DNA of 30,149 bases from Vulcanimicrobiota bacterium (GCA_021107945.1 JAIORV010000138.1:1-30149); one strand, 5' to 3'. Positions 1 through 29,396 are shown, counted from the stretch's first letter. Notes: generated by a model not told the origin, from the letters alone. Program-made: numbers and translations.

Positions 1-68
1 CCCGTCTTTGAGAAAATCATAGAAGTAAAGCTCTTCTCTCGTGATCCGCTCAGAATGACATGCTCAAG
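1..68. repeat. Dispersed ~70-bp repeat W, copy 1 (possibly truncated by the window edge)
   Basis: Aligns to 12208-12276. A third partial core CTTGATCCGCTCAGAAAGACA lies at 75-95. Confidence 0.7.
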
Positions 69-220
69 TCTTTCTTGATCCGCTCAGAAAGACAAGAAGC
101 CCCGGGGGACTGAATAATTACGCCTGAATCTTTGACAAAAAGTAAATGCACCCAAATCATATCAGCGAATGCCTGAAAAATAATGCAATAAATTAACACT
201 GAACCCTCGATATAATAAGT

Positions 221-7372: not shown

Positions 7373-7405
7373 AAGGAGCGAATTGAAATTCGCTCCTTGT
7401 TTTAT
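7373..7405 (+). terminator. Intrinsic terminator of the flotillin operon (hairpin copy T1)
   Basis: Perfect hairpin AAGGAGCGAAT-TGAA-ATTCGCTCCTT followed by GTTTTAT. Confidence 0.75.
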
Positions 7406-7490
7406 CTTGTTTTATCTTGTTTTATCTTGTTTTATCTTGTTTTATCTTATCTTGTTTTATCTTATCTTGTTTTATCTTATCTTGTTTTAT
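7396..7490. repeat. Tandem repeat: (CTTGTTTTAT)x5 then (CTTAT+CTTGTTTTAT)x3
   Basis: Direct reading of the sequence. The 10-bp units start at 7396, 7406, 7416, 7426 and 7436. The 15-bp units run from 7446 to 7490. Confidence 0.95.
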
Positions 7491-7658
7491 AGTATATAGT
7501 AATGCATTAATAGGGACAGACACCATTTTATTAATATATTATTTAGGGACAGGGATAAATTCCGGGCAATATTTCCTGAAAACAGCTTAAGCTGTATATA
7601 ATTAATGAAGTCTATTTTTCTCTGCGGCGAGACGCTGCAGACACCTGCATTGTTATAA

Positions 7659-7733: not shown

Positions 7734-8174
7734 TCAGGAAAATCCAATCTCCAGCTTCTTCCCAAAAGCCCTTGCCAACTTAAATAATGTTCTCAGAGTA
7801 ATATTCGACTTCTTTGCCCGTTCGATTTTTTGATAAGTCTGCCAGGGGATTCTTAGTTTTTCAGCCACCTGTTTCTGGGTCAATCCCGCTTCTTTTCTCA
7901 TATTCTTAAGAACCAGGGGGATCTCGATTTCCGGGTAAGGCGTGATATGAAGAATATCTTCTCCTTCCACTTTGGATGGCAAGGGGACTTCCTCATTGTC
8001 CTCAATCATTGATTCAATTACCATTGATAGAACATCCTGTCCCATTTCCACCAACTCCTCCAGGGATTCTCCCTGGGTAATTGCATCGGGAAAATCGATA
8101 AACTGAAGTGAGTATGCTGTCATATTATCATGATCTTCGAGGATTTCTTTCTCGAATTTTGCAGGATATTTCAT
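7734..8174 (-). CDS. hicB: HicB antitoxin with C-terminal HTH (XRE-like) domain
   Basis: 146 aa. N-terminal HicB fold and C-terminal HTH (LTQKQVAEKLRIPWQTYQKIERAK). Start lies 1 nt after the hicA stop (TAGAATG). Confidence 0.75.
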   Translation of the reverse strand: MKYPAKFEKEILEDHDNMTAYSLQFIDFPDAITQGESLEELVEMGQDVLSMVIESMIEDNEEVPLPSKVEGEDILHITPYPEIEIPLVLKNMRKEAGLTQKQVAEKLRIPWQTYQKIERAKKSNITLRTLFKLARAFGKKLEIGFS

Positions 8175-8455: not shown

Positions 8456-8540
8456 AGTAAAAAACCATTTTCATCCGGCGTCCCAACCGGAAAAAATGTG
8501 AAGAGTAGTTTTAATAGCGAATTGGTATAATTTAATGAAC

Positions 8541-8566
8541 AAGGAGCGAGTTTCAATTCGCTCCTT
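8541..8566. terminator. Hairpin copy T2 (inverted copy of T1). Likely terminator of ackA and boundary of the hicAB segment
   Basis: AAGGAGCGAGTTTCAATTCGCTCCTT matches the reverse complement of T1 at 25 of 26 positions. Confidence 0.6.
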
Positions 8567-11720: not shown

Positions 11721-11959
11721 TAATTCGTCACCTTTCTCGTGTTGTACTTCGATTATTATTCAGATCCCCTGACATGTCATGTTATGTAAAAGTCAATACT
11801 TTCCAATAACTTATTAGCTTTGTCTGTCTGCCGGTCTGTGGCGTCGATCCGGTGTTGGATTAGGACAACACCCGATTTTAATCGGGTGGGAGGATGATGC
11901 CCCAAACATTGGGTGTTTAACCGTTTTAACGGTTTCCCATTATTTGTCTGCTCCTGTCC

Positions 11960-12050
11960 TGGAAACCACTAAAGTGGTTAAGTCAAGCGAAAAGGGGTGG
12001 TTATGCCCTTCCTTCCACCATAATAAATTATGGTGTTGTCTTAACTTCCG
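11960..12050 (+). ncRNA. Two-hairpin conserved RNA motif, copy A
   Basis: CTGGAA-[AACCAC-TAAA-GTGGTT]-...TGGTTATGCC-pyrimidine tract-[CACCATAA-TAAA-TTATGGTG]-TTGTCTTAA. Homologous to copy B at 19470-19555, with compensatory changes. Confidence 0.5.
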
Positions 12051-12207
12051 ATATTACCGCGCTTTTACTGGATCAACCCCGGCAAGAACGGGTTTTACTT
12101 AACTCCGACGCCTTGCACAGCGAAGGATCTCCACTCATAACACATAGCCCCTCAAGTAAACATTCGATAGATTCTTCGCTGTGTCAATCACCGGTTATCA
12201 ACATAAT

Positions 12208-12276
12208 CCCATCTTTGAGAAAGTAATCTGAGTAAAGGATGTTTTTCGTGATCCGCTCAGTATGACAATCTCAGGG
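12208..12276. repeat. Dispersed ~70-bp repeat W, copy 2
   Basis: About 75% identical to window positions 1-68. Shared core TCTTTGAGAAA...GTGATCCGCTCAGNATGACA. Confidence 0.7.
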
Positions 12277-12299
12277 CTGTCTTTAATAAGGAATCAAAT

Positions 12300-15498: not shown

Positions 15499-15595
15499 GA
15501 GTAAATTTGCAAACAAATTGGCACGCAAATTAACAAACCTAAAGGTTTGAGCTACGAGGTTTGGGTTATGAACGTAGCGCGGGTTTTTAAACCCG
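15499..15595 (+). repeat. Mosaic REP module M1: 12-bp repeats, CCTAAAGGTTTGAGCTACGAGGTTTGGG, then REP
   Basis: Shares the layout of modules at 17365-17520 and 18117-18219. The REP copy (GTAG plus GCGGGTTTTTAAACCCGC) is at 15573-15595. Confidence 0.8.
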
Positions 15596-15807
15596 CCCGG
15601 TGGATGTCAGATTGAAATCGGGTGTTGTCTAAAAAATGTCATGAAAGATTAAGAATTAATAGGGGAAGAAGGAAATATATTTATTTTCAGGAAAAAAATG
15701 CCCTTTACGCAAAAGTTGTAGCTATTTGACGATATATAAAGGTTTTTTCTTGCTAAAATCAAAACTTTCAAGTAATTCTCAAAAAAAATTAAGGAGGATA
15801 ATTCGAT

Positions 15808-16842
15808 ATGAATAAGCGGGTTTTTAAGGCTATTGGCCTCACAATTCTGGTATTATCTTTTTTCGCAGCCATGCTTGTCGCTGGCTGCTCAAGTGGTGGA
15901 GGCGGAGGAGGATCTTCGTCGGATCCGACTTACACGCCGACATCGTCACCCACCCAGACAACAACGGTAACTGGACAAGTTACGGACAATGATGGTCCAG
16001 TTGCCAATGCCAGAGTAGAACTGGAATACACTAGCGGCTCTGGCAAAATGATTAAGGATGTAATTGTTGTTTATACAGATGAAAACGGCGATTACACAAT
16101 TCCGAATGTAGAAGTTGGACAGAATGTTAGAATATCAGCTTACTATCCTGACGGAAGTTGGTTGGGTTACTATGATGTGGTGGTACAAGAAGACCAACCA
16201 CCAATCGATGTTTCCCCAACCTCAACTCCAACGCCAACGCCGACGCCAAGCGTGACACCGAATCCGACGCCGACTTCGACAGCTTCACCGAGTCCGACGC
16301 CGACACCGACGGCAACACCGAGCCCGAGCCCGAGTACAACCCCAACGCCGGGGAATGGAACTCTGAATTTATCTTCAACCCCGAGTGGGGCGAAGATATT
16401 TATAGATAGTGTCGATACCGACACTACAACCCCAAATGTATTTTCCCTGATTCCAGGTAGCCATACATATAAATTAACACTGAGTGGTTATCAGGATTTT
16501 CAGGAAACTATAACGATTGTCGCGGATCAGACTGTGATTCGTGCGACTACATTAGTTCCCACATCTTCTGGGGAACAGGTCGAAGGAGATGTAAAGGATA
16601 GGGACACAGGTGGTCTCCTTGAAGGCGTAGAAATAAAATTTAAACAAGGAGAAACCACAGTTGAGACAATAAAAACAGACGACAAGGGAGAATTCTCAGT
16701 AAAATTACCAGCTGGGTTATATAGAGCCGAACTAAGACTTGCTGGTTACAGAGTAACCAGTTACCCCATAACTATCGAAACGGGGATCGTGAATGAATTT
16801 CATTGGACAATAAAAAATCTCGGTCAACAACAAACCGAGTGA
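15808..16842 (+). CDS. Surface lipoprotein with CarboxypepD_reg-like and PEGA domains and a Pro/Thr/Ser-rich linker
   Basis: Lipobox LVAGC|SSGGGGGG. Linker PTSTPTPTPTPSVTPNPTPTSTASPSPTPTPTATPSPSPS. PEGA-like segment GAKIFIDSVDTDTTTPNVFSLIPGSHTYKLTLSGYQDF. AGGAGG RBS. Confidence 0.7.
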   Translation: MNKRVFKAIGLTILVLSFFAAMLVAGCSSGGGGGGSSSDPTYTPTSSPTQTTTVTGQVTDNDGPVANARVELEYTSGSGKMIKDVIVVYTDENGDYTIPNVEVGQNVRISAYYPDGSWLGYYDVVVQEDQPPIDVSPTSTPTPTPTPSVTPNPTPTSTASPSPTPTPTATPSPSPSTTPTPGNGTLNLSSTPSGAKIFIDSVDTDTTTPNVFSLIPGSHTYKLTLSGYQDFQETITIVADQTVIRATTLVPTSSGEQVEGDVKDRDTGGLLEGVEIKFKQGETTVETIKTDDKGEFSVKLPAGLYRAELRLAGYRVTSYPITIETGIVNEFHWTIKNLGQQQTE

Positions 16843-16861
16843 AATAACAATGGTAATAATA

Positions 16862-16890
16862 GGCCCGCACAAAGTGTGGGTCTTTTTTTG
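16862..16890 (+). terminator. Intrinsic terminator of the lipoprotein gene
   Basis: GGCCCGCACAAAGTGTGGGTC hairpin (with G-U pairs) followed by TTTTTTT. Confidence 0.7.
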
Positions 16891-16941
16891 CAGAATCCAA
16901 AATGGGATATAGAATCCAAAATGGGTTCGCAATTTTTCTAC

Positions 16942-16971
16942 AAAACCACGCTTCGGGCGTGGTTTTGTTTT
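16942..16971 (+). terminator. Second strong hairpin with UUCG-type loop and T tract. Tandem terminator or 3' end of a short transcript
   Basis: AAAACCACGC-TTCG(G)-GCGTGGTTTT followed by GTTTT. Preceded by the direct repeat AGAATCCAAAATGGG at 16893-16907 and 16911-16925. Confidence 0.5.
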
Positions 16972-17180
16972 GGGGGTATAATAAGGGTTCCAGTAACAAA
17001 CGGATAAAATACGACGATCTTAAATTTTATCCACACTTCACACATTAATAAATTCTATGTATAATAACATTCAAACAATTTAATAATTTTAATAGGGGGT
17101 AGCTTAATTAAGACCCTTACGGGTTCTTTTTAAGCTATTAAACATATATTTGAGCTATTTTGTTACGTCGCCATAGGAAC

Positions 17181-17203
17181 GTAGCGCGGGTTTTTAAACC
17201 CGC
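17181..17203 (+). repeat. REP element copy (GTAG plus palindrome)
   Basis: GTAGCGCGGGTTTTTAAACCCGC. Flanked by inverted AATTAAGAC...GGGNTCTT hairpins at about 17102-17141 and 17205-17230. Confidence 0.85.
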
Positions 17204-17280
17204 TCAATTAAGACGTAAGGGGTCTTGTTGTCGGTTCTTTTTGTGATATCCCTTATTTGATTTTATCTTTTGGGATGGAA

Positions 17281-17330
17281 TCTTTAATACCTCATAAATT
17301 AACTGAGCTTCCCCGATTTTATTTTAGGGA
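17281..17330 (+). repeat. Duplicated leader segment L, copy 1
   Basis: AACTGAGCTTCCCCGATTTTATTTTAGGGATAATATGATAACAAA. About 93% identical to 18226-18275. Confidence 0.85.
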
Positions 17331-17364
17331 TAATATGATAACAAATAGAGATAAAATAATTGAT

Positions 17365-17520
17365 ACCAGTTTGGCGGCAAACCTAAAGGTTTGAGCTACG
17401 AGGTTTGAGCTACGAACGTAGCGCGGGTTTTTAAACCCGCTGATCATCTATGAGGTTTGGGGTGCGAGGTTTGGGTTGCGAACGTAGCGCGGGTTTTTAA
17501 ACCCGCTGGTCATCTGCGAG
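17365..17520 (+). repeat. Mosaic REP module M2 with two tandem REP copies (17418-17440 and 17484-17506)
   Basis: GGCAAACCTAAAGGTTTGAGCTACG, then two AGGTTTGRG-N-GAACGTAGCGCGGGTTTTTAAACCCGCTGRTCATCT units. Confidence 0.85.
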
Positions 17521-17613
17521 GTTTGAGATCAATTTGCATTATGGAGAGGATTGTTATATTATCACGTCAAAAAATAAAAAAAAGAGAATCTTGAAAAAGG
17601 GGGATCTAATCCG

Positions 17614-18111
17614 ATGGAACAACAATCTAAAAAATTACATTTCAAAGCGAAGAGATTGAAGGGATTTGAATACCACGGATTTTATCGCTATTTCCTGACA
17701 TTGTGCGTAGAAAAAAAACACCCCCTTTTCAAATCACAAAAACTAGTGGAGTTCATCCGCAGAAGTTTTTTCAAGACGGCTGAAGAATGGAAACCTGACA
17801 TAATCTGCTTTTGCTTTATGCCCGATCATCTTCATTTACTCGTCGGCGGGCTCGACGAATCCTCGGTTCTGAAGGGATTTATCAAAAATTTCAAACAAAA
17901 AACCGGTTACGCCTTCAAGCAAAAGACCGGGCGAAAATTATGGCAAAGGAGTTTCTATGACCATATTCTCCGGGATGAGGAGGAGACATACGTTATAGGC
18001 AAATATATTCTTGAGAACCCGGTGAGAAAAGGGATTGTGGAAGATTATCGGGATTATCCATTTTCATGGTGTAAATATTTTGAGTTGAAAGATGGGGATT
18101 CGGTTATTTGA
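17614..18111 (+). CDS. REP-associated tyrosine transposase (RAYT, IS200-like Y1 HuH transposase)
   Basis: 165 aa. HuH motif MPDHLHLLV. Catalytic Tyr motif YILENPVRKG (the YxxxNPV of TnpA_REP). Flanked on both sides by GTAG-palindrome REPs. AAGGGGGAT RBS. Confidence 0.85.
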   Translation: MEQQSKKLHFKAKRLKGFEYHGFYRYFLTLCVEKKHPLFKSQKLVEFIRRSFFKTAEEWKPDIICFCFMPDHLHLLVGGLDESSVLKGFIKNFKQKTGYAFKQKTGRKLWQRSFYDHILRDEEETYVIGKYILENPVRKGIVEDYRDYPFSWCKYFELKDGDSVI

Positions 18112-18116
18112 AGACA

Positions 18117-18219
18117 AATTGGCAAACAAATTCGCAAACAAATTGGCAAACCTAAAGGTTTGAGCTACGAGGTTTGAGAGGTTTGAGTTATGGAACGTAG
18201 CGCGGGTTTTTAAACCCGC
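18117..18219 (+). repeat. Mosaic REP module M3: 12-bp TTSGCAAACAAA x3, CCTAAAGGTTTGAGCTACGAGGTTTGAG, then REP at 18197-18219
   Basis: Direct reading. Same layout as M1 and M2. Confidence 0.85.
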
Positions 18220-18225
18220 TCGGTG

Positions 18226-18275
18226 ACTGAGCTTCCCCGTTTTGTTTTAGGGATAAATGATAACAAACATAAAGG
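18226..18275 (+). repeat. Duplicated leader segment L, copy 2 (provides the RBS region of the radical SAM gene)
   Basis: GACTGAGCTTCCCCGTTTTGTTTTAGGGATAAATGATAACAAACATAAAGG. Confidence 0.85.
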
Positions 18276-18287
18276 TGCCATAATAAT

Positions 18288-19430
18288 ATGCATATTACTC
18301 CGGAACAACAATCGAGGATGACAATGCCCATTACACATTGTGCGATATTTCTTACGGAGAGATGTGACCTTGCTTGCACTTATTGCTACCTGAAGAATAT
18401 CGCTCCTGCAAGAGATATGAGCGAGAAGGCCGGGATGGATGTTGTTGATTTTCTTTTATCACGGGCGAAAGAATATCTTTCAATAAGCTTTTTTGGCGGG
18501 GAGCCTCTGTTGGAATTTGATCTTATAAAAAAATTAATCTCCTATGCACGAAAAAGAGCGGAAGAGAATGAAATTAAAATCACTTTTTCCATAAACACGA
18601 ACGGCATACTGATCGACAGGGAAAAGATTGATTACCTTCGTAAAAACAGAATGGGAATAGTCCTCTCAATCGACGGGCTTCCGGAATCGCACGACACAAG
18701 GCGGATAACAAAAGAAGGTGGGGGGTCCTTTGACCTGCTGAATAAGAAAATCCCCATTCTTCTTGAAGATCCCCGGCAAGTGCATATAAGAATGACAGTC
18801 ACGCCTGATACTGTTTCGAAGATGTTCTGTGGGGTCAAATTTATTCACGACATCGGATTTCGAAGCCTTGCCGTGGCGATGGACAGAACTGCTCCCGGTT
18901 GGACAGGCGATAAGAAGAAAATTTTTGCAGACGAATACAAAGAAATCGTTGATTGGTATATTGATATGCTCAGGGAAGGAGACAAATTCAAGCTGATCGA
19001 TCTCGACTACGGTGCGGCAAGCCTGGATCATCCTTACCGGGAAAAGGGAATGCCTTGCGAAGCCGGCAGGAGTGGAATCGCCATTGATCCGGTGGGCATC
19101 ATATACCCATGCTACCGTTTCGTGGGGATGAAGGATACGGCAATTGGCGATATTTACAACGGATTTGATGATGAAAAGAGAAAAATATTCTTCGACTATT
19201 CCAGGTTGAATATTGAGAAATGTAAGAATTGTCCCTTCAATTTCCGCTGTCATCGCTGCCCATGGCTTTCATATACAATCACCGGTGATTATTCAGCTCC
19301 TGTTGACATCAACTGTTTTGAAGCGGATCTTATGATTGGTCTTTTCAGGTATTTCAGGGAGAAGATGGAGAAAGAAGAAAATGAGATTTACAGGAAAAGG
19401 GTTGAAATCCTGAAGAAAAAATATTTTTAA
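18288..19430 (+). CDS. Radical SAM/SPASM domain protein (anSME-like peptide or protein maturase)
   Basis: CDLACTYC (Cx3Cx2C). C-terminal Cx13Gx4C (CEAGRSGIAIDPVGIIYPC) and CKNCPFNFRCHRC cluster, typical of SPASM auxiliary Fe-S domains. Confidence 0.8.
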   Translation: MHITPEQQSRMTMPITHCAIFLTERCDLACTYCYLKNIAPARDMSEKAGMDVVDFLLSRAKEYLSISFFGGEPLLEFDLIKKLISYARKRAEENEIKITFSINTNGILIDREKIDYLRKNRMGIVLSIDGLPESHDTRRITKEGGGSFDLLNKKIPILLEDPRQVHIRMTVTPDTVSKMFCGVKFIHDIGFRSLAVAMDRTAPGWTGDKKKIFADEYKEIVDWYIDMLREGDKFKLIDLDYGAASLDHPYREKGMPCEAGRSGIAIDPVGIIYPCYRFVGMKDTAIGDIYNGFDDEKRKIFFDYSRLNIEKCKNCPFNFRCHRCPWLSYTITGDYSAPVDINCFEADLMIGLFRYFREKMEKEENEIYRKRVEILKKKYF

Positions 19431-19469: not shown

Positions 19470-19555
19470 GGCTGGAAGCCTCTAAAGAGGCTAAGACGGC
19501 GTGGTTAAGCCATTCTCCCTCCCACCACAATAAATTGTGGTGTTGTCTTAAAAGT
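19470..19555 (+). ncRNA. Two-hairpin conserved RNA motif, copy B (3' of the radical SAM gene)
   Basis: CTGGAA-[AGCCTC-TAAA-GAGGCT]-...TGGTTAAGCC-pyrimidine tract-[CACCACAA-TAAA-TTGTGGTG]-TTGTCTTAA. Stems covary with copy A. Confidence 0.5.
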
Positions 19556-27390: not shown

Positions 27391-27414
27391 GCGGATTTAA
27401 AAACCCGCGCTACG
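27391..27414 (-). repeat. REP element copy in inverted orientation, ~80 nt upstream of mutL
   Basis: GCGGATTTAAAAACCCGCGCTACG. This is the reverse complement of CGTAGCGCGGGTTTTTAAATCCGC. Confidence 0.8.
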
Positions 27415-27492
27415 TGATTGAAGTGAAGAATTACAAAATTTATTGAGAGAAACAGGAGGGAATGAAGGGCTCTCTGGTCGTAATTAATATAT

Positions 27493-29268: not shown

Positions 29269-29334
29269 GGAGGCTGTAGTATTCCCAAAAAAACCGTAAG
29301 GAAACGCAATTATTCAGACCATCCCACAATTTGA

Positions 29335-29358
29335 GTAGCGGCGGGTCTCCCGACCCGC
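29335..29358 (+). repeat. Variant REP-like element downstream of mutL (possible terminator)
   Basis: GTAG-CG-GCGGGTC-TCCC-GACCCGC. Same GTAG-CG-palindrome architecture as the main REP family but with a different stem. Confidence 0.5.
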
Positions 29359-29396
29359 CTGGAAACGGCATGAAATCTATATGGAAATAAATATAA

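What the first reader, a model, noticed from the sequence alone, without database searches (positions are those of the whole stretch)
15499..18275. BIME-like mosaic modules and a duplicated leader precede three consecutive plus-strand genes
Three loci share the same composite layout. Each has degenerate 12-bp tandem units (CAAATTGGCAAA-like, x3), then CCTAAAGGTTTGAGCTACG, then one to three AGGTTTGRG units, then a REP. The loci are 15499-15595, 17365-17520 and 18117-18219. They lie upstream of the lipoprotein, the RAYT and the radical SAM gene respectively. A 45-nt leader (ACTGAGCTTCCCCG..TTTTAGGGATAA.ATGATAACAAA) is also duplicated at 17281-17330 and 18226-18275. In the second copy it supplies the RBS region of the radical SAM gene. 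This indicates REP-mediated recombination or duplication that assembled this locus. It may also place these genes under shared regulation.
Basis: seen in the sequence. Interest (0 to 1): 0.6.

Follow-up and report, generated by a model that had tools for sequence, protein, structure and literature searches.

The report
RAYT transposase gene with REP clusters
The repeated modules are real. They are pairs of two different GTAG-tagged palindromic repeats (REPs) clustered around the gene for their own REP-associated tyrosine transposase, a well-known kind of bacterial repeat system found here in an uncultured Eremiobacterota genome, and there is no evidence that they co-regulate the three genes.

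Summary
The 27-nt REP occurs exactly five times on the + strand and once, diverged, on the − strand (none expected by chance). CCTAAAGGTTTGAGCTACG occurs three times.

Each module is therefore an inverted heterodimer of REP-A and REP-B with the GTAG tags facing each other, which is genuinely BIME-like. The 14-nt and 12-nt units are tandem copies of the two halves of REP-A.

The gene at 17614-18111 is a bona fide RAYT (NCBIfam equivalog above cut-off, HUH and Tyr conserved). It is flanked by [GTAG-REP-B] and [REP-A-CTAC], the classical REPtron layout. The same cassette sits in two other gene contexts, one of them a pseudogene copy in the same assembly. In the 79 %-identical rSAM orthologue locus, RAYT and lipoprotein are absent.

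L does not supply the rSAM ribosome-binding site, because the likely start is 18324. Shared regulation is unsupported. Verdict: a new member of a known kind, of modest interest.

The parts
15502..15537 (+). Module 1: three degenerate 12-nt units (CAAATTGGCAAA-like). Each carries the GCAAAC left arm of REP-A.
15534..15556 (-). Module 1: REP-A. Read on the - strand it is CGTAG-CT-CAAACC-TTTA-GGTTTG, i.e. GTAG tag plus a 6-bp hairpin.
15557..15570 (+). Module 1: degenerate 14-nt half-REP-A unit (AGGTTTGGGTTATG).
15570..15596 (+). Module 1: REP-B (GAAC-GTAG-C-GCGGGTTT-TT-AAACCCGC).
17149..17203 (+).
   Evidence: (family D3)
17302..17345 (+). L copy 1, the 44-nt duplicated segment.
17378..17414 (-). 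Module 2a: REP-A hairpin (17378-17393) plus two exact 14-nt units AGGTTTGAGCTACG (17387-17414).
17414..17440 (+). Module 2a: REP-B.
17453..17506 (+). Module 2b: two degenerate 14-nt half-REP-A units (17453-17480) plus REP-B (17480-17506). With module 2a it forms a 66-nt tandem of 2.1 copies. This REP-B is the left (GTAG-oriented) flank of the RAYT cassette.
17519..17613 (+). Conserved 5' region of the RAYT cassette: AGGTTTGAG, then GATCAATTTGCATTAT... with a promoter-like TTTGCA-16-TATATT at 17533-17560 and an AGGGGGA ribosome-binding site. Conserved in L006 and L007.
17614..18111 (+). RAYT gene (165 aa): HUH = H72-L-H74, catalytic Tyr131 in YILENPV.
18115..18150 (+). Module 3: three 12-nt units (CAAATTGGCAAA), starting 3 nt after the RAYT stop codon.
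18147..18192 (-). Module 3: REP-A hairpin (18147-18162), a 14-nt unit (18156-18169), a 9-nt partial unit (18170-18178) and a 14-nt unit (18179-18192). This is the right (CTAC-oriented) flank of the RAYT cassette.
18193..18219 (+). Module 3: REP-B.
18226..18267 (+). L copy 2.
18288..19430 (+). Radical SAM/SPASM gene, PapB-like but below the family cut-off. The likely true start is ATG 18324. It is a neighbour, not part of the repeat system.
15808..16842 (+). Lipoprotein gene (PEGA and CarboxypepD_reg domains). A neighbour, not part of the repeat system.
27391..27417 (-). Solitary REP-B copy (3 mismatches over 27 nt, 1 in the tag-plus-hairpin core), 9 kb from the RAYT and just upstream of mutL.

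Best explanation
The locus is a REPtron: a REP-associated tyrosine (HUH/Y1) transposase gene together with its cognate repetitive extragenic palindromes.

Two REP types are present, each a short hairpin with a GTAG tag at its 5' foot:
- REP-B: GTAG-C-GCGGGTTT/AAACCCGC, tag on the + strand.
- REP-A: GTAG-CT-CAAACC/GGTTTG, tag on the - strand.

The RAYT gene lies between a REP-B upstream and a REP-A downstream, with the tags pointing outward. Elsewhere A and B abut with their tags facing each other (...GCTACG AA CGTAGC...). This gives BIME-like heterodimers (modules 1, 2a, 3), one of which is reiterated as a 66-nt tandem (module 2).

The 14-nt units are tandem copies of the tag plus adjacent arm of REP-A. 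The 12-nt units are tandem copies of its other arm plus flank. Their copy number differs between homologous loci (1-6 and 1-3), so they behave like minisatellites.

Inferred mechanism, by analogy with E. coli TnpA_REP: on single-stranded DNA the RAYT binds the hairpin and its GTAG tag, cleaves at a nearby CT, and can rejoin strands. This would create, multiply and rearrange REPs, dimers and partial units around its own gene and at scattered intergenic sites. The 44-nt L duplication bracketing the cassette (17346-18225) is most simply a by-product of the rearrangement that brought the cassette next to the rSAM gene.

Shown here: the sequence anatomy, RAYT identity, cassette homology in three contexts, and enrichment of tagged hairpins around related RAYTs. 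Inferred: binding, cleavage, and the origin of the half-unit arrays and of L.
For: - RAYT identity: NCBIfam NF047646 REP_Tyr_transpos scores 102.5 bits against a cut-off of 80, whereas the IS200 model scores 32.8 against 55. Pfam Y1_Tnp matches. The best PDB match is E. coli TnpA_REP 4ER8, with the HUH and Tyr motifs aligned. H72, H74 and Y131 are invariant in 23 homologues.
- The repeats are far above chance.
- Tagged-hairpin detection finds REP-A on the - strand and REP-B on the + strand in every module.
- As ssDNA, the modules fold into hairpin A, a 6-bp tag-tag helix and hairpin B, with z-scores of -3.4 to -4.5.
- A 55 %-identical RAYT (L008) is flanked by GGAAACCTGAAGGTTTCC-CCTACG repeats, which align position for position with REP-A.
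- L006 (RAYT 89 % identical) and L007 (same assembly, pseudogene) carry the same cassette, with REP-A arrays right after the stop codon and REP-B and/or REP-A upstream, in unrelated neighbourhoods.
- Across the window, L006-L008 and the 80 GTDB relatives, the commonest nearest-neighbour layout is [GTAG-hairpin] RAYT [hairpin-CTAC] (32 of 84 loci; 51 of 84 have both within 400 nt). In the 80 GTDB loci, tagged hairpins are 6.6-fold enriched in the flanks.
- Copies away from any RAYT: module 1 (2 kb away), the REP at 27391, and L001, a contig from a different metagenome with REP-B plus REP-A and three 14-nt units but no RAYT in 4.3 kb.
- A REP-B variant in L009 has a compensatory stem change, GCGGGTCT/AGACCCGC.
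- Literature: RAYT genes are flanked by inverted REPs and often by BIMEs (PMC2817692). GTAG REPs form hetero- and homodimers and tandem clusters (PMC3733652). TnpA_REP needs GTAG and cleaves at CT on either side of the hairpin (PMC3479197).
Against: - Genome-wide abundance is not shown. Only about 50 kb of this genome was available, and most copies lie within about 2 kb of a RAYT gene.
- The exact REP-B was absent from the GTDB representative genomes and occurred once in the JGI metagenome scan.
- The two REP types differ in sequence, so they cannot form the long REPIN hairpin. It is untested whether one RAYT recognises both.
- REP-A has only a 6-bp stem.
- No activity data exist for this clade.
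- L has no precedent as a product of Y1 transposition, which makes no target duplications.
Confidence: 0.85

Rival explanations
1. The cassette is an autonomous IS200/IS605-type insertion sequence. The hairpins would be its left and right subterminal ends, the whole element would transpose, and the extra repeats would be remnants of IS ends.
For: - The cassette occurs in three different gene contexts, and twice in one assembly.
- REP-A copies flank the gene in direct orientation in L006 and L008, as IS608 ends do.
- The protein has the Y1_Tnp fold family.
Against: - The IS200 NCBIfam model scores 32.8 bits, below its cut-off of 55, while the RAYT equivalog is above its cut-off.
- The two copies in the assembly are only 84 % identical and one is a pseudogene, so there has been no recent transposition.
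- The repeats carry GTAG tags and occur as dimers, singlets and tandem clusters away from any transposase gene.
- The left boundaries of the three cassettes differ.
Confidence: 0.08
2. The modules are cis-regulatory elements (operators, attenuators or mRNA-stabilising 3' hairpins) that place the lipoprotein, RAYT and rSAM genes under common control, with L as a shared leader.
For: - All three modules lie upstream of + strand genes.
- REPs in E. coli can stabilise upstream mRNA and affect termination. This is established knowledge, summarised in PMC2817692 and PMC3733652.
- L copy 2 contributes a weak -35-like hexamer to a promoter-like site at 18257-18284.
Against: - Module 3 begins 3 nt after the RAYT stop codon and is part of the RAYT cassette in L006 and L007, where different genes follow it.
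- rSAM orthologues at 88 % and 79 % identity lack the modules and L.
- The hairpins are not followed by T-runs.
- There are no Rfam matches.
- L copy 1 precedes no gene.
- The promoter-like hits in the region are not more numerous than in shuffles (11 against 7.6 ± 2.7).
Confidence: 0.05
3. The similarity among the three loci is a chance or low-complexity artefact.
For: The 12-nt units are A/T-rich and degenerate, and module 2 lacks them.
Against: Exact 19- to 34-nt matches occur where none is expected in shuffles. The same elements recur in independent metagenomes.
Confidence: 0.01

Closest known systems
E. coli K-12 REPtron (tnpA_REP / yafM flanked by BIME-2 made of Y and Z2 REPs; structure 4ER8)
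   Same: - An HUH/Y1 RAYT gene sits between REPs of two different sequence types in opposite orientation.
- The REPs carry a 5' GTAG tag.
- REP pairs are reiterated in tandem next to the gene.
- The best PDB match of the window protein is 4ER8.
   Different: - The protein match to 4ER8 is weak (30.9 bits, E = 2.2e-6).
- The hairpin sequences are unrelated, and REP-A has a very short 6-bp stem.
- The REP pairs have their tags facing each other, with 2-25 nt between them.
- Half-REP units form 12- and 14-nt tandem arrays.
- Copy number in the genome is unknown, and no IHF or gyrase linker motifs are known here.
REPIN-RAYT systems of Pseudomonas fluorescens (Bertels & Rainey 2011; groups 2 and 3 of PMC5581495)
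   Same: A RAYT with flanking REPs, REP doublets as the repeated unit, and clusters of doublets.
   Different: - REPINs are two copies of the same REP, which form one long hairpin. Here the partners are different REPs that fold separately.
- This genome has two RAYT paralogues of the same type, one of them decayed.
GTAG-tagged REP superfamily dimers and clusters (Di Nocera et al. 2013, PMC3733652)
   Same: A GTAG tag not involved in pairing, stems of 5-13 bp, heterodimers with tags inside ('TT') or outside ('HH'), and tandem reiteration of dimers. All of these are described there.
   Different: Judging from the passages I read, that survey found GTAG REPs in Proteobacteria, Cyanobacteria, Chloroflexi and the PVC superphylum. 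This host is annotated as Eremiobacterota. Tandem arrays of half REPs are not mentioned in those passages.
IS200/IS605 family (IS608, ISDra2)
   Same: An HUH Y1 catalytic core, recognition of subterminal DNA hairpins on one strand, and a guide tetranucleotide 5' of the hairpin.
   Different: The window protein falls below the IS200 family cut-off. There are no defined left and right ends, the repeats are dispersed without the gene, and there are no near-identical copies.

Membership tests
RAYT (REP-associated tyrosine transposase) | Protein matches the curated RAYT equivalog model above its cut-off and matches it better than the IS200 model | tested here: met
   NF047646 scores 102.5 bits (cut-off 80); NF033573 IS200 scores 32.8 bits (cut-off 55)
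RAYT (REP-associated tyrosine transposase) | HUH motif and catalytic tyrosine conserved | tested here: met
   H72-L-H74 and Y131 (YILENPV) are invariant in 23 homologues and align with E. coli TnpA_REP 4ER8
RAYT (REP-associated tyrosine transposase) | [quoted passage not shown] | tested here: met
   REP-B at 17480-17506 (GTAG on +) lies upstream and REP-A at 18147-18169 (GTAG on -) downstream. The same holds in L007, and this is the dominant layout in 84 loci
RAYT (REP-associated tyrosine transposase) | Binds and cleaves its REP as ssDNA | not testable with these tools
   Needs biochemistry. Inferred from E. coli TnpA_REP (PMC3479197)
REP (GTAG-tagged repetitive extragenic palindrome) | Short imperfect palindrome with an unpaired GTAG at one foot | tested here: met
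   REP-A and REP-B are both detected as GTAG + stem ≥6 bp + loop of 4. ssDNA folds are
REP (GTAG-tagged repetitive extragenic palindrome) | Extragenic location | tested here: met
   All copies lie between called genes
REP (GTAG-tagged repetitive extragenic palindrome) | High copy number dispersed over the genome (tens to hundreds) | tested here: inconclusive
   About 50 kb of this genome holds 7 REP-B and 5 REP-A. Only 1 REP-B lies more than 2.2 kb from a RAYT. One RAYT-less copy pair was found in another metagenome (L001). There were no exact hits in the GTDB representatives
BIME (bacterial interspersed mosaic element) | REPs of different types, closely spaced, in alternating orientation, reiterated in tandem | tested here: met
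   REP-A(-)/REP-B(+) pairs occur in modules 1, 2a and 3, and module 2 is a 66-nt tandem of 2.1 copies. In the second unit of module 2 the REP-A is only a degenerate half
BIME (bacterial interspersed mosaic element) | Defined linker motifs that bind IHF or gyrase | not testable with these tools
   No equivalent motifs are known for this lineage
REPIN | Two inverted copies of the same REP forming one long hairpin | tested here: not met
   The partners are different sequences. The predicted fold is two separate hairpins plus a 6-bp tag-tag helix
IS200/IS605 insertion sequence | Transposase matches the IS200 family model, with multiple near-identical copies having defined ends | tested here: not met
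   The protein is below the IS200 cut-off. The two copies are 84 % identical and one is a pseudogene. The left boundaries differ

The most novel reading that the evidence does not exclude
The tandem arrays of half REPs may be direct sequence footprints of RAYT-catalysed cleavage at the CT next to the GTAG tag followed by strand transfer, and not simple replication slippage.

The arrays in this lineage are:
- The 14-nt unit, tag plus adjacent arm, at 1-6 copies.
- The 12-nt unit, the other arm plus flank, at 1-3 copies.

Tight half-REP duplications with 12-19 nt spacing also occur next to distant RAYTs in L016, L032, L044, L048 and L089. L030 has right-arm-plus-CTAC half units.

If this reading is right, such arrays record how REP clusters and BIMEs grow. 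They would also give a predicted cleavage site for an uncharacterised RAYT clade, and the 44-nt L duplication would mark a cassette-level rearrangement by the same enzyme.
Probability: 0.2. Interest if true: 0.5.

Novelty: new member of a known kind. Interest (0 to 1): 0.3.

Why it matters
It adds a RAYT/REP system from a poorly studied, uncultured lineage (a MAG annotated as Eremiobacterota). It shows that the classical REPtron and BIME logic holds there: two REP types, inverted flanks, tandem dimers.

For annotators the practical points are:
- The 'leader' and 'modules' are not regulatory signals of the lipoprotein or rSAM genes.
- The rSAM start is probably mis-called.
- The repeats explain why short-read assemblies break at 15563 and 18149.

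For REP specialists, the recurring half-REP tandem arrays and the near-identity of REP hairpins between RAYT loci of different phyla are small but testable clues. They bear on how RAYTs generate REP clusters and on co-transfer of a RAYT with its REP.

Tried and rejected
- An exact-match scan of the GTDB representative genomes for REP-B gave no hits. The metagenome scan gave a single contig, so genome-wide abundance could not be measured.
- An exact look-up of the RAYT protein found no record.
- I tested whether the 549-aa gene upstream of the L006 cassette is the lipoprotein homologue. It shows no similarity, so there is no lipoprotein-RAYT synteny.
- I tested whether the 12-nt and 14-nt arrays fold into one long interrupted hairpin by nested arm pairing. 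The MFE structures do this in part, but they are no more stable than shuffles (z = -0.9 to -1.9) and the ensembles are diffuse. Rejected as a defined structure.
- Rfam gave nothing at gathering threshold. Below it there were only weak terminator-like hits downstream of the lipoprotein gene.
- I looked for a precursor-peptide ORF in 16843-17613 and found nothing convincing.
- I looked for L in L006, L007, L009 and L091. It is absent. L091 has only a weak resemblance, about 15 of 26 nt by eye, which is not interpretable.
- The period-19 array in L039 is not clearly a half-REP array.
- The Logan contig breaks at the modules are explained by the repeats within the window, so they are not independent evidence of genome-wide copies.
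- GC skew over 30 kb is uninformative about the replication strand.
Full report
**Source.** The window is a complete 30,149-nt contig of a MAG that NCBI annotates as Candidatus Eremiobacteraeota bacterium (proteins MCD4784987-95). An ENA contig from assembly ERZ26872897 is identical to it over 18 kb.

**Observation**
- The 27-nt REP GAACGTAGCGCGGGTTTTTAAACCCGC occurs exactly at 15570, 17177, 17414, 17480 and 18193 on the + strand. It also occurs with 3 mismatches at 27391-27417 on the − strand. None is expected in shuffles.
- CCTAAAGGTTTGAGCTACG occurs exactly three times, with none expected.
- AGGTTTGRG occurs 11 times against 0.45 expected, and 10 of these lie in the region.
- TRF reports 12-nt arrays at 15503-15531 and 18114-18151, 14-nt arrays, and a 66-nt tandem at 17387-17527.
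- The duplicated segment L is real: 17302-17345 against 18226-18267, 93 % identity over 44 nt.
- Locus 2 has only one degenerate 12-nt unit.

**Genes**
- 17614-18111 encodes a RAYT. The NCBIfam REP_Tyr_transpos equivalog scores 102.5 bits (cut-off 80), whereas the IS200 model scores 32.8 (cut-off 55). Pfam Y1_Tnp also matches.
- The best PDB match of the RAYT is E. coli TnpA_REP 4ER8, with the HUH motif and catalytic Tyr aligned. H72, H74 and Y131 are invariant among 23 homologues.
- 15808-16842 is a lipoprotein with PEGA and CarboxypepD_reg domains.
- 18288-19430 is a radical SAM/SPASM enzyme, PapB-like but below the family cut-off.

**Key reinterpretation.** A 55 %-identical RAYT on a 7.6-Mb contig (L008) is flanked by GGAAACC-TGAA-GGTTTCC-CCTACG repeats: three upstream at 58-nt spacing, two downstream, and one inverted variant.
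- These repeats align position for position with the window's GCAAACC-TAAA-GGTTTG-AGCTACG.
- The 'CCTAAAGGTTTGAGCTACG' piece is therefore itself a REP read from the other strand: 5'-CGTAG-CT-CAAACC-TTTA-GGTTTG. I call it REP-A.
- An independent detector for GTAG + stem + loop finds REP-A on the − strand and REP-B on the + strand in every module.
- Each module is thus an inverted heterodimer with the tags facing each other (...GCTACG AA CGTAGC...). This is a 'TT heterodimer' in the nomenclature of PMC3733652. In module 2 it is reiterated as a 66-nt tandem, which is BIME-like.
- As ssDNA, the modules fold into hairpin A, a 6-bp tag-tag helix and hairpin B, with z-scores of −3.4 to −4.5.
- The 14-nt unit AGGTTTGAGCTACG equals one arm of REP-A plus its tag. 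The 12-nt unit carries the other arm (GCAAAC) plus flank. Both are therefore half-REP tandem arrays.

**The RAYT cassette.** The gene lies between REP-B at 17480-17506 (tag outward, upstream) and REP-A at 18147-18169 (tag outward, downstream). This is the arrangement that defines RAYT loci (PMC2817692).
- The same cassette, from GATCAATTTG through the gene to REP-A plus two 14-nt units, is 87 % identical in L006. L006 is a JGI contig with an 89 %-identical RAYT and unrelated neighbours (tyrS, SHMT).
- It is 84 % identical in L007, contig NODE_24 of the same ERZ26872897 assembly, which lies between a histidine kinase gene and peptidase U32 genes.
- The L007 copy is a pseudogene, with a 1-nt deletion in an A-run and five in-frame stops.
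- Array copy numbers differ between homologous positions. The 12-nt units number 3, 2 and 1 after the stop codon in the window, L006 and L007. The 14-nt units range from 1 to 6.
- L001, a contig from another metagenome, has REP-B followed 66 nt later by REP-A with three 14-nt units. It has no RAYT within 4.3 kb.

**Wider comparison.** I fetched 80 RAYT relatives from GTDB representative genomes. None is more than 51 % identical, and they span many phyla.
- In these 80 loci, GTAG-tagged hairpins are 6.6-fold enriched in the ±400-nt flanks (4.45 against 0.67 per kb).
- Counting these together with the window and L006-L008 (84 loci), the commonest nearest-neighbour layout is [GTAG-hairpin] gene [hairpin-CTAC], in 32 of 84. 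At least one of each is present in 51 of 84.
- Many loci show heterodimers of two REP types.
- REP-A's hairpin and tag side recur identically in L016 (Stahlbacteria) and L020 (a Clostridia MAG). REP-B's hairpin recurs in L011.
- Tight half-REP duplications with 12-19 nt spacing also occur in L016, L032, L044, L048 and L089. L030 has right-arm-plus-CTAC half units.

**Synteny of the neighbours**
- The rSAM orthologue at 79 % identity (L009) keeps the downstream TPR gene. Upstream it has a glycosyltransferase and a 297-nt spacer, with no RAYT, no lipoprotein, no REP-A and no L.
- That spacer holds a REP-B variant with a compensatory stem change (GCGGGTCT/AGACCCGC) and another GTAG hairpin type.
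- The orthologues in L009 and L091 (88 % identical) begin at the codon equivalent to window 18324, preceded by a conserved GAGGA(G). The true start is therefore probably 18324, and L (which ends at 18267) does not provide the ribosome-binding site.
- The lipoprotein's similarity to TIGR04134 'radical SAM-associated lipoprotein' is below cut-off and lies in a generic β-sandwich region.

**Interpretation.** This is a REPtron with BIME-like REP clusters.
- By analogy with E. coli TnpA_REP, the RAYT presumably binds these hairpins on ssDNA and remodels them. TnpA_REP needs the GTAG tag and cleaves at CT on either side of the hairpin (PMC3479197).
- A CT directly follows the tag in REP-A, and GCT follows hairpin B in four of the five + strand copies.
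- L brackets the 880-nt cassette and is absent from all other copies. It most likely arose in the rearrangement that placed the cassette here. Y1 transposition does not make target duplications, so the mechanism is unresolved.
- Nothing supports shared regulation. Module 3 belongs to the RAYT cassette's 3' end. Promoter-like hits are not enriched over shuffles (11 against 7.6 ± 2.7). No hairpin is followed by a T-run. There are no Rfam matches.

**Limits**
- Only about 50 kb of this genome was accessible, so dispersal and copy number are open.
- Whether one RAYT recognises both REP types, and whether the half-REP arrays come from RAYT action or from slippage, cannot be decided computationally.

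**Verdict.** This is a new member of a known kind.

Noticed in passing
window 18288-18324: The rSAM/SPASM gene is probably annotated 12 codons too long. Orthologues in L009 (79 %) and L091 (88 %) start at the codon equivalent to ATG 18324, which is preceded by a conserved GAGGA(G) at 18311.
   Followed up: yes
L007 9798-10294 (ERZ26872897 NODE_24, same assembly as the window): A second RAYT cassette lies in the same assembly. It is 84 % identical in DNA, has a 1-nt deletion in an A-run and five in-frame stops, so it is a pseudogene. It is still flanked by REP-A/REP-B upstream and REP-A downstream.
   Followed up: yes
window 29335-29360 (flanks 29306-29382); L009 11398-11473: A further GTAG-tagged hairpin, GTAGCGG-CGGGTC-TCCC-GACCCG-CC, lies downstream of mutL. 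About 77 nt including its flanks is 82 % identical to a non-syntenic site in L009. It may be another REP or MITE-like family.
   Followed up: partly
window 11864-11883 (-), 12008-12044, 15608-15635, 19515-19551; L009 9358-9435; L007 3684-3790: Another small intergenic repeat family: a hairpin followed by GGTGTTGTCT(T)AAAA, with compensatory stem differences between copies (CACAAT/ATTGTG against CATAAT/ATTATG). The copy between the rSAM and TPR genes is syntenic in L009.
   Followed up: partly
window 1-95 and 12064-12283; L007 3391-3575 and 12931-13115; L006 3191-3259: A repeat family of roughly 70-190 nt, 71-80 % identical between copies, is present at several places in this genome and in a relative. 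Its nature is unknown.
   Followed up: no
window 7373-7506 and 8538-8566: The palindrome AAGGAGCGAATTGAAATTCGCTCCTT is followed by about ten tandem copies of TTGTTTTATC. A second copy of the palindrome lies 1.1 kb away. Together they bracket a HicB-like antitoxin/HTH gene (7734-8174, - strand).
   Followed up: no
L016 2828-2965 and 3455-3545; L020 3448-3575; L011 2880-2940: RAYT relatives only 46-51 % identical, in other phyla (Stahlbacteria, a Clostridia MAG, an unclassified MAG), are flanked by REPs whose hairpins are identical to REP-A (GCAAACCTAAAGGTTTG + CTAC side) or REP-B (GCGGGTTTTTAAACCCGC). This suggests either co-transfer or strong co-constraint of a RAYT and its REP.
   Followed up: partly
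L030 3478-3660; L016 2830-2853; also L032, L044, L048, L089: Tandem duplications of half REPs (tag plus one arm, spacing 12-21 nt) recur next to distant RAYT genes, so the 14-nt arrays are not unique to this lineage.
   Followed up: partly
window 17037-17065: This is the best sigma-70-like match in the region (TTCACA-17-TATAAT, 11 of 12). It lies after the lipoprotein terminators (16861-16890 and about 16935-16965) and upstream of module 0. It might be a promoter reading into the REP cluster and RAYT.
   Followed up: no
window 16896-16925; L006 3030-3075: Downstream of the lipoprotein terminator there is a direct repeat, GAATCCAAAATGGG ×2. The motif TTTTTTTGCAGAATCC...CRCAATTTTTCTRCRAAA also follows the terminator of the unrelated upstream gene in L006.
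   Followed up: no
window 15808-16842: Residues 47-117 of the lipoprotein weakly match TIGR04134 'radical SAM-associated putative lipoprotein' (32.3 bits, cut-off 39.8). If the match is real, the RAYT cassette would sit between two functionally linked genes. The match lies in a generic β-sandwich domain, and L009 lacks the lipoprotein.
   Followed up: partly
L002, L003, L005 (Logan assemblies SRR15668619, SRR32473240): Short-read contigs of the same organism end exactly inside the modules (window 15563 and 18149/18150) and at 19480. This shows that these repeats fragment de Bruijn assemblies.
   Followed up: yes
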